From positions 1-19,672 of IMG/VR virus record IMGVR_UViG_2531839666_000030: a DNA stretch of 19,672 nucleotides. The stretch is one strand, 5' to 3'. The position numbers were made by a program, and so were the translations under genes. Under the pieces are notes generated by a model. That model had not been told where the DNA came from, did no database searches, and saw only the letters and a program-made list of their open reading frames with translations. Shown here piece after piece: positions 5,350-6,121 of this stretch; positions within the stretch are counted from its first letter, which is position 1; every line of letters begins with the position of its first letter. This DNA comes from a virus. Lineage: Duplodnaviria > Heunggongvirae > Uroviricota > Caudoviricetes.

Positions 5350-5571
5350 ATGGCGGTATTTTATATTCCTGATATTTACGGACGCTTTTACCTGGTTAAT
5401 TTCGATAACGTGAAGGTGATTTCACTGGCCGAAAATAAAGAATGTGGCGATTTACTTTTTGAATTTAATGACCGCACACGAATGGTGATATCTGCCGGAC
5501 TTGATCGCGAAGGTGCGACAGAAGTTTACAGCGGAATATGCCGTTCTGTTGGTGCGAAACAAGTCAGCTAA
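5350..5571 (+). CDS. hypothetical small protein (73 aa), position-equivalent to Mu kil
   Basis: ORF directly after B with AGGTG 7 nt upstream of ATG 5350. Only positional and size similarity to Mu Kil (74 aa); no sequence motif recognised. Confidence 0.45.
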   Translation: MAVFYIPDIYGRFYLVNFDNVKVISLAENKECGDLLFEFNDRTRMVISAGLDREGATEVYSGICRSVGAKQVS

Positions 5572-5583
5572 ATGAGGTGTTAT

Positions 5584-5838
5584 ATGAATATGCAATCCTG
5601 CGGTAACAAAATGAATTTATTCGACTCCCTGAACAGCGCGCGCCGTCTGACCGAACTTGCCGGTGCGGTACTGGAACGCAGTAAGCGCTACCCACAACGT
5701 TTTGCACTGAAAACCACGCCGCCGGTAGGCAACGTGCAGGGAACCGGTGAAATTGAAATCACCATACAGACCAACGGCCTGCGCCGCCGTGTGAAGGCCA
5801 CCCGCATCAGCGGCTGCACGGTTTACTGGGAGGTGTGA
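5584..5838 (+). CDS. hypothetical protein (84 aa)
   Basis: ORF in the early operon frame series; TGAGGTG Shine-Dalgarno-like upstream of ATG 5584 (the ORF track starts it at 5572). No recognised domain. Confidence 0.45.
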   Translation: MNMQSCGNKMNLFDSLNSARRLTELAGAVLERSKRYPQRFALKTTPPVGNVQGTGEIEITIQTNGLRRRVKATRISGCTVYWEV

Positions 5839-5839
5839 G

Positions 5840-6121
5840 GTGAAAAAAAATCTCATTGCATGGGCGTGGTCGAGTGGTCTTATTGAGTTCGGTTACGTCC
5901 TGCCGGAAGGTGCATTGCCGATAGTTGCCGGAAAGCCTGCCACGGTACGGCATGTGATTGAGGTTATGGCGCGTCATGGACGTGATGAACAGGAGCAGTT
6001 ACTGGTTCCGGGGATACCGGAAGCGGTGACGGAGGAAGAAGCCTTTAATGCCATGATTCGGTTCTGCCGTGAGGTCAGACGCCGGGTCAGTTATCCAAAC
6101 AGAACGAGGACCAGAGGATGA
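5840..6121 (+). CDS. hypothetical protein (93 aa)
   Basis: GTG start preceded by GGAGG (5829-5833). No recognised domain. Confidence 0.45.
   Translation: MKKNLIAWAWSSGLIEFGYVLPEGALPIVAGKPATVRHVIEVMARHGRDEQEQLLVPGIPEAVTEEEAFNAMIRFCREVRRRVSYPNRTRTRG

What the first reader, a model, noticed from the sequence alone, without database searches (positions are those of the whole stretch)
5350..6121. Three small early genes of unknown function directly after B
In Mu this position holds kil and other host-targeting accessory genes. The three ORFs (73, 84 and 93 aa) have plausible ribosome-binding sites but no motif I recognise. Small early proteins in transposable phages often target host division, repair or defence functions.
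Basis: inference. Interest (0 to 1): 0.5.

Follow-up and report, generated by a model that had tools for sequence, protein, structure and literature searches.

The report
Kil plus two orphan early genes
Three real small genes follow the transposition gene B of a Mu-like prophage of E. coli: the middle one is a relative of phage Mu's host-killing Kil protein, and the other two belong to catalogued but untested phage protein families, one of which carries a misleading database name.

Summary
The three ORFs exist as described: 5350-5571 (73 aa), 5584-5838 (84 aa) and 5840-6121 (93 aa). Each has a Shine-Dalgarno site. They are tightly packed in the early operon of an E. coli Mu-like prophage and are under purifying selection (pN/pS about 0.1-0.3).

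- **ORF2 is not an unknown.** It is a Kil-family protein (Pfam PF26843, PHROG 2679). It aligns with Mu gp5 Kil at 95.5% probability in a profile-profile comparison. It is unrelated to lambda Kil.
- **ORF1 is a narrow Enterobacteriaceae-only family** with a predicted small PH-like/LytTR-like fold.

No function is established for ORF1 or ORF3. Overall this is an ordinary Mu-type accessory region, with one useful annotation correction and one suggestive gene linkage.

The parts
4415..5347 (+). MuB-type transposition ATPase (context: the gene called 'B' in the finding)
   Evidence: Pfam Phage-MuB_C E 2.5e-25 and AAA_22. 49% identity to Mu B over 300 aa.
5340..5344 (+). Shine-Dalgarno-like AGGTG, 5 nt before the ORF1 ATG
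   Evidence: Read directly from the sequence.
5350..5571 (+). ORF1, 73 aa, acidic (pI 4.9), soluble. An Enterobacteriaceae-restricted family (PHROG 3375). Predicted to have five strands plus a C-terminal helix.
5574..5579 (+). Shine-Dalgarno-like GAGGTG before ORF2 (4 nt before ATG 5584, 10 nt before ATG 5590)
   Evidence: Read directly from the sequence.
5584..5838 (+). ORF2, 84 aa, basic (pI 10.3). A Kil-family protein and a divergent homologue of Mu gp5 Kil. The first 9 residues are a non-conserved extension.
   Evidence: Precomputed Pfam PF26843 Kil_protein on the exact protein. PHROG 2679 E 6.3e-46 and cross-hit to Mu Kil's PHROG 2743 at E 8.8e-4. Mu Kil hits PHROG 2679 at 9.3e-5. BLASTP to Mu Kil 33% over 39 aa. 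hhalign of ORF2-type against Mu-type alignments: 95.5%, E 1.6e-8, 59 columns. Siblings start at the equivalent of M10. pI.
5829..5833 (+). Shine-Dalgarno GGAGG, 6 nt before the ORF3 GTG start
   Evidence: Read directly from the sequence.
5840..6121 (+). ORF3, 93 aa, basic (pI 9.5). Belongs to the large family that databases call 'host nuclease inhibitor protein' (PHROG 1518). Signature W10, G13-x-I15, P22-x-G24, R45-H46, LLVPG-x-PEA (54-62).
6118..6688 (+). Context: two further small genes (6118-6390, 90 aa; 6395-6688, 97 aa) between ORF3 and Gam. They are weak paralogues of each other.
   Evidence: PHROG 4107 and 2230. BLASTP 22% identity, E 0.002.
6700..7230 (+). Context: Mu Gam homologue (DNA-end-binding protein)
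   Evidence: Pfam Phage_Mu_Gam E 6.5e-41. 58% identity to Mu Gam.
1921..1949 (+). Context: promoter-like site upstream of the ner homologue. It is the only + strand candidate for the early promoter that would transcribe A, B and the three ORFs.
   Evidence: Consensus scan. The only + strand terminator-like sites are a weak one inside B (5037-5061) and a good one at 11017-11040, after the GemA homologue.

Best explanation
The three ORFs are genuine, co-transcribed genes of the Mu-type "semi-essential" early region of an E. coli transposable prophage. They are translated in a tight, probably coupled array right after B.

**ORF2** is the prophage's Kil, a small basic protein homologous to Mu gp5. 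By homology (inferred, not shown) it is a host-killing early protein. It should make cells lose rod shape by hitting cell elongation or the envelope, not by the FtsZ block used by the unrelated lambda and Rac Kil proteins.

**ORF3** is a stand-alone member of a very large, uncharacterised phage family. Its database name, "host nuclease inhibitor", most likely comes from annotation carry-over. The family is a recurrent component of transposable-phage early regions, where it sits next to the DNA-end-binding protein Gam or its positional substitute DUF3164. My best guess (inferred, low confidence) is that it is a small protein-binding adaptor. It would act in the same stage as Gam/DUF3164, namely handling or protecting DNA ends and intermediates during infection and transposition. 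Its very conserved RH...LLVPGxPEA surface would be the binding site.

**ORF1** is a lineage-restricted small acidic beta-sandwich protein (PH-like/LytTR-like). It is most likely another protein-binding accessory factor, and its partner is unknown.
For: **Real genes in one operon.** The ORFs, their SD sites and overlapping or abutting stops and starts are visible. The only + strand promoter-like site lies upstream of ner. There is no convincing + strand terminator before 11017. pN/pS is well below 1.

**Prophage identity.** The window has a c-like repressor, ner, A, B, Gam, gp11, gp12, GemA and Mor homologues.

**ORF2 is Kil.**
- PF26843 is recorded on the exact protein.
- PHROG 2679 matches at E 6e-46, with reciprocal cross-hits to Mu Kil's PHROG 2743.
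- hhalign gives 95.5%, E 1.6e-8.
- The C-terminal motif R-x-V-x(5-6)-G-C-x-[VI]-[IY]-W is shared.
- Intermediates exist in Edwardsiella and Lonsdalea.
- Both proteins have pI of about 10.2.

**Kil phenotype in the literature.** Mu kil gives spherical cells and is unrelated to lambda and Rac kil (PMC3961180). kil is described as Mu's cell-killing function, and deleting the whole semi-essential region restores viability after infection (PMC3325207).

**ORF3 family and its linkage.**
- The family has 1,931 clusters.
- Of 69 genome loci with enough flank, 60 carry MuA/MuB. In 46 of those 60 a Gam or DUF3164 gene lies within about 1.5 kb, with a median gap of about 360 nt.
- The same adjacency is seen gene by gene in Salmonella, Brenneria, Raoultella, Yersinia, Klebsiella, Pseudomonas nitroreducens, P. 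aeruginosa and Casadabanvirus phages.

**Origin of the ORF3 name.**
- D3112 and MP38 "gam" ORFs are Gam joined to the next gene by 1-nt deletions.
- Those deletions destroy the conserved Gam tail GIEDFxIxPFE.
- About 40 later genomes keep two separate genes.

**Folds.**
Against: - No experiment bears on any of the three proteins.
- Similarity between ORF2 and Mu Kil is only 20-33% identity, so the phenotype may not be conserved. Mu Kil's own target is unknown.
- The whole early region of transposable phages is syntenic, so ORF3's proximity to Gam/DUF3164 may be inherited gene order rather than functional coupling.
- In this window ORF3 is two genes away from Gam.
- ORF3 is missing from 12 of 35 sibling E. 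coli prophages that keep Gam. Mu itself has no ORF3.
- ORF3 relatives also occur in non-transposable phages without Gam.
Confidence: 0.65

Rival explanations
1. ORF3 really is a host nuclease inhibitor, or an obligate partner of Gam. In that case the database name is right by luck, or because the D3112-type Gam fusion is real.
For: An ORF3-family gene lies beside Gam or DUF3164 across three proteobacterial classes. In DMS3, JBD24 and Spike it starts 1 nt after Gam's stop. D3112 and MP38 carry two different 1-nt deletions, 3 nt apart, that both fuse the frames. This could mean the fusion is tolerated or even selected.
Against: The fused frame removes the conserved Gam tail. The shifted frame is found only in early records: D3112, MP22, MP29, MP38 and MP48. 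In MP22, MP29 and MP48 the junction-peptide match ends before the ORF3-like part (query residues 1-44 only), which suggests a different downstream gene. About 40 later genomes have separate genes. ORF3 is basic (pI 9.5), unlike acidic DNA-mimic nuclease inhibitors (my own knowledge). It has no match to the Gam Pfam model. Gam occurs without ORF3 in Mu and in 12 of 35 siblings.
Confidence: 0.15
2. ORF1 and/or ORF3 are anti-defence proteins, that is, inhibitors of a bacterial immune system rather than factors in the phage's own DNA transactions.
For: They are small, early and soluble. ORF3 is present or absent among otherwise near-identical prophages. ORF1 alleles are much more diverged than the flanking B gene in the same loci (pS 0.49 against 0.17 in L046). 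That pattern is expected for genes in an arms race. ORF3 relatives also occur in early regions of non-transposable phages.
Against: There is no similarity to anything with a known anti-defence role. None of the libraries searched (Pfam, NCBIfam, PHROGs, PADLOC, PDB) is a dedicated anti-defence library, so this was barely testable. pN/pS is clearly purifying, not diversifying. ORF3's strong conservation and fixed neighbourhood over three proteobacterial classes fit a lifestyle-linked role better.
Confidence: 0.2
3. ORF1 is a modulator or antidote of the neighbouring Kil, forming a toxin-regulator pair.
For: ORF1 always lies between B and an ORF2-type Kil: in E. coli (35 of 35 IMG/VR loci), Salmonella and Klebsiella oxytoca. 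The charges are opposite (pI 4.9 against 10.3).
Against: An ORF2-type Kil follows B directly, with no room for ORF1, in Edwardsiella (L077). All Mu-type Kil genes also lack ORF1. A gp8-like gene is often inserted between ORF1 and Kil. Nothing tests an interaction.
Confidence: 0.1
4. ORF2 works like lambda Kil or Rac KilR, blocking FtsZ-ring assembly and causing filamentation, as the first reader proposed to test.
For: PHROG labels all the Kil families, including lambda's, "Kil protein for bacterial septation inhibition".
Against: There is no sequence or profile similarity to lambda Kil. The literature says Mu, Rac and lambda kil are unrelated, and that Mu kil gives spherical cells rather than filaments (PMC3961180). 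The shared PHROG wording is a name collision.
Confidence: 0.08
5. One or more of the ORFs are chance open frames and not genes.
For: They are short (73-93 aa), and Pfam-A and NCBIfam gave no hit in the local copies.
Against: SD sites, coupled spacing, pN/pS of 0.1-0.3, conserved homologues in other genera and confident predicted folds all argue for real genes.
Confidence: 0.01

Closest known systems
Phage Mu gp5 Kil (Pfam PF26843 Kil_protein; PHROG 2743)
   Same: ORF2 shares several features with it:
- It is in the same Pfam family.
- It aligns with the Mu-type family over 59 columns at 95.5% probability.
- It has a similar size and pI.
- It shares the C-terminal G-C-x-[VI]-[IY]-W motif.
- It sits in the same early operon downstream of B.
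   Different: Only about 20-33% identical to Mu Kil. It falls in a separate PHROG (2679), found in E. coli, Salmonella, Citrobacter and Edwardsiella prophages. It is the second gene after B rather than the first, and it has a 9-residue N-terminal extension here. The killing or rounding phenotype has not been tested.
Lambda Kil and Rac KilR (FtsZ / division inhibitors)
   Same: Small early prophage proteins that are toxic to the host and have the same gene name.
   Different: No detectable homology (PMC3961180). The reported phenotype is also different: filaments for these proteins, spheres for Mu kil.
Mu Gam (PF07352) and the D3112/MP38 'gam' ORFs
   Same: ORF3 is about 43% identical to the C-terminal 75 residues of the 266-aa D3112 'gam' product. 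The ORF3 family is usually a neighbour of Gam or DUF3164.
   Different: ORF3 has no similarity to the Gam domain itself. The D3112 and MP38 fusion comes from a 1-nt frameshift that is absent from about 40 other genomes. The shared name is therefore not evidence of shared function.
MbtH-like proteins (small partners of NRPS adenylation domains)
   Different: There is no sequence signal: none of 67 family members hit the MbtH Pfam model even at E 10. Foldseek finds nothing. The genomic context has nothing to do with NRPS. This is fold resemblance only.
LytTR DNA-binding domains (ComE, AgrA) and PH-like domains
   Different: ORF1 is only 73 aa, about 60% of a LytTR domain. It is acidic (pI 4.9), which does not suit DNA binding. 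There is no sequence match.
PHROG 1518 / PHROG 3375 (catalogued phage protein families)
   Same: ORF3 and ORF1 match these families end to end (E 3.8e-43 and 1.6e-46). Near-identical proteins are annotated in hundreds of E. coli genomes.
   Different: These are catalogue entries without experimental function. PHROG 1518's functional label appears to be inherited from the D3112 mis-fusion.

Membership tests
Mu Kil family (Pfam PF26843 Kil_protein) | Significant match to the family model | tested here: met
   PF26843 is listed without a weak or faint mark for the exact ORF2 protein. The local Pfam copy lacks this model (no hit for ORF2 or for Mu Kil itself), so the match rests on the precomputed table plus PHROG 2679 at E 6.3e-46.
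Mu Kil family (Pfam PF26843 Kil_protein) | Homology to the founding member, Mu gp5 | tested here: met
   BLASTP 33% over 39 aa, E 1e-4 in a 12-protein database. Reciprocal PHROG cross-hits at 8.8e-4 and 9.3e-5. hhalign 95.5%, E 1.6e-8 over 59 columns.
Mu Kil family (Pfam PF26843 Kil_protein) | Small basic protein encoded in the early operon just downstream of the B gene of a transposable phage | tested here: met
   84 aa, pI 10.3. It is the second gene after B. The same placement is seen in Salmonella, Klebsiella, Raoultella, Yersinia and Brenneria.
Mu Kil family (Pfam PF26843 Kil_protein) | Kills the host or makes cells spherical when expressed | not testable with these tools
   Known only for Mu kil (Waggoner et al. 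1989, as cited in PMC3961180). Needs induction and microscopy.
Lambda Kil / Rac KilR division inhibitors | Sequence similarity to lambda Kil | tested here: not met
   BLASTP finds no alignment at E<=100. hhalign probability is 0.05%.
Gam host-nuclease inhibitor (Pfam PF07352) | Match of ORF3 to the Gam domain | tested here: not met
   ORF3 has no Pfam hit at E<=1. The Gam model covers only residues 19-156 of D3112 'gam', whereas ORF3 aligns to residues 173-264.
Gam host-nuclease inhibitor (Pfam PF07352) | Genuine domain fusion linking ORF3-like domains to Gam | tested here: not met
   D3112 and MP38 differ from DMS3, JBD24 and Spike by single-base deletions that replace the conserved Gam tail. 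The shifted frame occurs only in D3112, MP22, MP29, MP38 and MP48. About 40 other genomes have two genes. Whether the deletions are sequencing errors or real variants was not resolved.
MbtH-like proteins (Pfam PF03621) | Sequence match to the family, including its conserved Trp signature | tested here: not met
LytTR DNA-binding domain (Pfam PF04397) | Sequence match and full-length (about 100 aa) domain | tested here: not met
PHROG 1518 (ORF3 family) / PHROG 3375 (ORF1 family) | End-to-end match to the family profile | tested here: met
   ORF3 residues 1-92 match profile positions 10-101 of 103, E 3.8e-43. ORF1 residues 1-73 match positions 1-73 of 73, E 1.6e-46.
Known anti-phage defence components (PADLOC) | Match to any defence-system protein model | tested here: not met
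   No hits at E<=1 for any of the small ORFs.

The most novel reading that the evidence does not exclude
The ORF3 family (about 90 aa, RH...LLVPGxPEA signature, MbtH-like predicted fold) may be a previously unrecognised, ancient accessory component of transposable phages. It would work together with the DNA-end-binding proteins Gam or DUF3164, for example by recruiting or blocking a host factor at Mu-type transposition or infection intermediates. DUF3164 would then be a functional replacement for Gam. The mis-derived name "host nuclease inhibitor" would have hidden an uncharacterised module present in thousands of prophages.
Probability: 0.2. Interest if true: 0.55.

Novelty: new member of a known kind. 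Interest (0 to 1): 0.3.

Why it matters
**Annotation.**
- ORF2 can be named Kil-family with confidence. It should not be expected to behave like lambda Kil.
- The label "host nuclease inhibitor protein", attached to more than a thousand small proteins like ORF3, appears to have no experimental basis. It should not be used for functional inference.

**Biology.**
- Mu's semi-essential early region is still largely unexplained decades after it was mapped.
- The ORF3 family stands out in that region because it recurs across alpha-, beta- and gamma-proteobacterial transposable prophages, next to Gam or DUF3164. That makes it a sensible first target for experiments.
- The target of Mu-type Kil is also still unknown. 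This divergent subfamily gives a second sequence type for suppressor and interaction screens.

None of this would surprise a specialist in Mu-like phages, so the value is moderate.

Tried and rejected
**Searches that found nothing useful**
- Pfam-A, NCBIfam and PADLOC scans of the three ORFs gave no hits.
- The local Pfam copy lacks PF26843, so the Kil assignment had to come from PHROGs, the precomputed table and hhalign.
- PDB sequence searches with single sequences and with profiles gave nothing significant.
- The ORF3 profile gave a run of weak hits (E 0.08-1) to the start of the first ATPase domain of ClpB, Hsp104 and ClpC. These targets are all homologues of each other, none is significant, and the match is a short G/P-rich stretch. 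I rejected it as chance.
- Foldseek against PDB with the ORF3 model had no match at E<=0.001.
- Rfam and repeat searches of the region were empty.
- Literature searches for DUF3164, for D3112 early genes, and for Mu Kil with MreB or spherical cells gave no functional study of ORF1, ORF3 or DUF3164, and no mechanism for Mu Kil.

**Ideas tested and dropped**
- MbtH homology: no family member hits the MbtH Pfam model, so only fold resemblance is claimed.
- Gam::ORF3 domain fusion as Rosetta-stone evidence: I favoured this at first, then rejected it after seeing the frameshift.
- Mutual exclusion of the Mu gp8-like gene and ORF3: suggested by the E. coli siblings, but rejected because Klebsiella oxytoca has both.

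**Limits**
- The first single-sequence homologue search for ORF3 found only near-identical proteins. An alignment query was needed.
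Full report
**What the window is.** The window holds the left part of a Mu-like (transposable) prophage of E. 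coli.
- A truncated Na+/H+-exchanger-family host gene (1-1005) is followed by a c-like repressor with a Mu DNA-binding domain (1298-1816, minus strand).
- Next come a Ner-type HTH_35 gene (2034-2279), the transposase A (2236-4344) and the B ATPase (4415-5347).
- Small genes follow, then Gam (6700-7230) and homologues of Mu gp11, gp12, GemA and Mor.
- The same DNA occurs at 95-99% identity in about 230 complete E. coli genomes and inside two Stx-phage records as an "inserted Mu-like phage".

**Checking the observation.**
- ORF1 runs 5350-5571 (73 aa), ORF2 runs 5584-5838 (84 aa) and ORF3 runs 5840-6121 (93 aa, GTG start).
- Each has a Shine-Dalgarno-like site: AGGTG, GAGGTG and GGAGG, placed 5, 4 and 6 nt upstream.
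- They abut or overlap their neighbours. ORF1 starts 2 nt after B's stop. ORF3 starts 1 nt after ORF2's stop. ORF3's TGA overlaps the next ATG.
- The only + strand promoter-like site lies upstream of ner. No convincing + strand terminator occurs before 11017. The ORFs therefore most likely belong to the long early transcript, as in Mu.
- Against diverged sibling loci the pN/pS ratios are 0.07-0.34 (ORF1), 0.11-0.27 (ORF2) and 0.07-0.32 (ORF3). B and Gam in the same loci give 0.04-0.29.
- RefSeq calls the same genes.
- Rfam and repeat searches are empty.

**ORF2 is Kil.**
- PHROGs places ORF2 in family 2679, labelled Kil, at E 6e-46, with a weaker hit to family 2743.
- Mu's own gp5 Kil is the reverse: family 2743 strongly, and 2679 at 9e-5.
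- Direct BLASTP finds 33% identity over the C-terminal 39 residues.
- The precomputed Pfam table lists PF26843 "Kil_protein" for the exact ORF2 protein. It lists the same family for the gene after B in Salmonella, Raoultella, Yersinia, Brenneria and Klebsiella prophages.
- The local Pfam copy does not contain that model, which explains the empty scans.
- I built an ORF2-type alignment (E. coli, Salmonella, Citrobacter, Edwardsiella) and a Mu-type alignment (Mu, Raoultella, Pluralibacter, Kluyvera, Yersinia and others). They match at 95.5% probability, E 1.6e-8, over 59 columns.
- The shared features are an R-P or R-x motif near residue 39, P-P at 46-47, and the C-terminal G-C-x-[VI]-[IY]-W.
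- Both proteins are basic with pI about 10.2, and neither has a membrane segment.
- Sibling prophages start Kil at the codon equivalent to Met10, so the first nine residues here are a dispensable extension.

**What Kil is expected to do.**
- The literature held here says that the kil genes of Mu, Rac and lambda share only a name. Rac kil blocks FtsZ rings and causes filaments, whereas Mu kil expression gives spherical cells (PMC3961180).
- The same literature calls kil Mu's cell-killing function. Deleting Mu's whole semi-essential region restores host viability after infection (PMC3325207).
- I confirmed that ORF2 has no similarity to lambda Kil.
- The PHROG wording "Kil protein for bacterial septation inhibition" is applied to Mu, lambda and ORF2 alike. 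It is a name collision.
- The inferred function of ORF2 is therefore host killing with loss of rod shape. The target is unknown, and this step is inference from a distant homologue.

**ORF3: a very large family with a borrowed name.**
- ORF3 matches PHROG 1518, "host nuclease inhibitor", at E 4e-43.
- An alignment-seeded search found 1,931 protein clusters at E<=1e-3. Most are 81-94 aa, and many are named "host nuclease inhibitor protein" by NCBI.
- None has a Pfam domain, and ORF3 does not match the Gam model.
- The name can be traced. tblastn shows ORF3 aligning to the C-terminal 75 residues of the 266-aa "gam" product of Pseudomonas phage D3112. That product contains a Gam domain at residues 19-156 and an ORF3-like part at 173-264.
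- DMS3, JBD24 and Spike have a normal 172-aa Gam ending ...GIEDFAIVPFEAEVQ, which matches Mu Gam's tail. A separate 93-aa gene follows 1 nt later.
- D3112 and MP38 each lack one base about 50 nt before the Gam stop. This replaces the tail with an out-of-frame linker that runs into the next gene.
- The two deletions are at different positions, 3 nt apart.
- A junction-peptide search finds the shifted frame only in D3112, MP38, MP22, MP29 and MP48, all of them older records. In the last three the match ends before the ORF3-like part, which suggests a different downstream gene. About 40 later genomes have two genes.
- I conclude (inference) that the fusion is a sequencing artefact or a sporadic variant. 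The family's name would then be annotation carry-over, not evidence.

**ORF3: what the context does show.**
- A scan of one genome per species returned 80 loci from Gamma-, Beta- and Alphaproteobacteria, with a few from other phyla.
- I searched these loci with profiles that I built for MuA, MuB, Gam, DUF3164, GemA, Mor and Kil. Of the 69 loci with enough flank, 60 carry MuA/MuB.
- In 47 of those 60 a Gam gene (9 loci) or DUF3164 gene (38 loci) is present. In 46 of them it lies within about 1.5 kb of the ORF3-like gene, with a median gap of about 360 nt.
- Gene tables for Salmonella, Brenneria, Raoultella, Yersinia, Klebsiella, P. nitroreducens and P. aeruginosa show the same thing.
- DUF3164 occupies Gam's position in many of these prophages and has no known function.
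- Against a strict coupling, several observations stand:
  - ORF3 is missing from 12 of 35 sibling E. coli loci that keep Gam.
  - Mu, D108 and SfMu have no ORF3.
  - Relatives occur in non-transposable phages and prophages: BcepMigl, KL4 and a Burkholderia gladioli prophage.

**ORF3: structure.**
- With a 67-sequence alignment, AlphaFold2 gives mean pLDDT 89.7. The model has three strands, a helix, an extended segment that carries the invariant LLVPGxPEA, and a long C-terminal helix.
- Foldseek finds nothing in the PDB.
- No family member hits the MbtH Pfam model, so this is a fold resemblance only.
- MbtH-like proteins act by binding a partner enzyme (my own knowledge). That is weakly in line with an adaptor role.

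**ORF1.**
- ORF1 matches PHROG 3375 (unknown function) end to end.
- Homologues occur only in E. coli, Salmonella, Klebsiella and a few unidentified relatives. The word-indexed search found 50 clusters. An exhaustive profile search of 1.84 billion representatives found only 16, several of them fragments or repeat-protein false positives.
- ORF1 always sits right after B and before an ORF2-type Kil, sometimes with a Mu gp8-like gene in between.
- An ORF2-type Kil follows B directly in Edwardsiella, so Kil does not need ORF1.
- The AlphaFold2 model has pLDDT 89.3, with five strands and a C-terminal helix.
- The protein is acidic (pI 4.9), which argues against DNA binding.
- Its alleles are much more diverged than the neighbouring B gene in the same loci. 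This suggests allele exchange or faster evolution.
- My best guess is a small protein-binding accessory factor. Nothing more can be said from sequence.

**Verdict.**
- The finding is real but mostly ordinary.
- It describes the variable accessory part of a Mu-type early operon. That part contains one recognisable gene (Kil) and two members of catalogued, uncharacterised families.
- The useful outcomes are the Kil assignment with the correct expected phenotype, the likely origin of a misleading family name, and the recurrent ORF3-Gam/DUF3164 neighbourhood as a testable lead.

Noticed in passing
window 1-1005 and 990-1170: The first ORF is a truncated host cation/proton antiporter gene (Pfam Na_H_Exchanger E 1e-53). 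From memory it looks like E. coli kefC. It breaks off near 990-1005, where the prophage left end must lie. Three direct copies of TTTGATAC[CT]G follow at 1010-1019, 1105-1114 and 1157-1166. They are possibly transposase end-binding sites.
   Followed up: partly
window 6118-6390 and 6395-6688: The two small genes between ORF3 and Gam both begin MSKV..R(I/V)IFE(Y/F) and are weak paralogues (22% identity, E 0.002). The second matches PHROG 2230, which Mu gp7 also hits weakly (E 0.009). Function unknown.
   Followed up: partly
L003 5476-6276 (D3112), L011 676-1476 (MP38), compared with L009, L010, L012: Two different single-base deletions, 3 nt apart, put Gam in frame with the next gene in D3112 and MP38. 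The shifted frame is also seen in MP22, MP29 and MP48, but not in about 40 later Casadabanvirus genomes. Whether this is a sequencing artefact or a real recurrent variant is unresolved.
   Followed up: yes
L052 6572-7210, L055 6269-6883, L057 6269-6886, L063 4381-4998, L064 5269-5883, L065 3997-4620: DUF3164 (PF11363) occupies the position of Gam in many transposable prophages: 38 loci with DUF3164 against 9 with Gam among 47. No functional study was found. It may be a functional substitute for Gam.
   Followed up: partly
L013-L050 (IMG/VR siblings of the window): The region between B and Gam is mosaic among near-identical E. coli prophages. 21 of 35 loci have the window's order, 12 lack ORF3, and 7 carry a 139-aa Mu gp8 homologue between ORF1 and Kil. 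ORF1 and Kil are always present.
   Followed up: yes
L046 2355-2582 compared with 1426-2358, and other siblings: ORF1 alleles differ from the window far more than the adjacent B gene in the same locus (pS 0.49 against 0.17 in L046). ORF1 nucleotide identity falls to 80%, while B stays at 95-97% in most loci.
   Followed up: no
L055 5496-5744 and 6001-6276 (Brenneria prophage): This prophage carries two ORF3-family genes (83 aa and 91 aa) in the same early region. The 83-aa product shows the family signature AYAWASGVIEFG...LLVPG.
   Followed up: no
window 8926-9477: This 183-aa early protein has weak HTH matches and a region similar to Mu gp9 (31% over 101 aa, E 7e-9). RefSeq calls the sibling a SANT/Myb-like DNA-binding protein. 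The order of Mu gp8- and gp9-like genes differs from Mu.
   Followed up: no
L007 2616-2993 (JBD69 gp13), L008 2616-2993 (JBD5), L065 4622-4999: A 125-aa gene is inserted between Gam or DUF3164 and the ORF3-like gene in some Pseudomonas phages. One record labels it "Mu Gam-like end protection", but it has no Pfam hit. This is probably another carried-over name. I did not check whether the three 125-aa genes are homologous.
   Followed up: no
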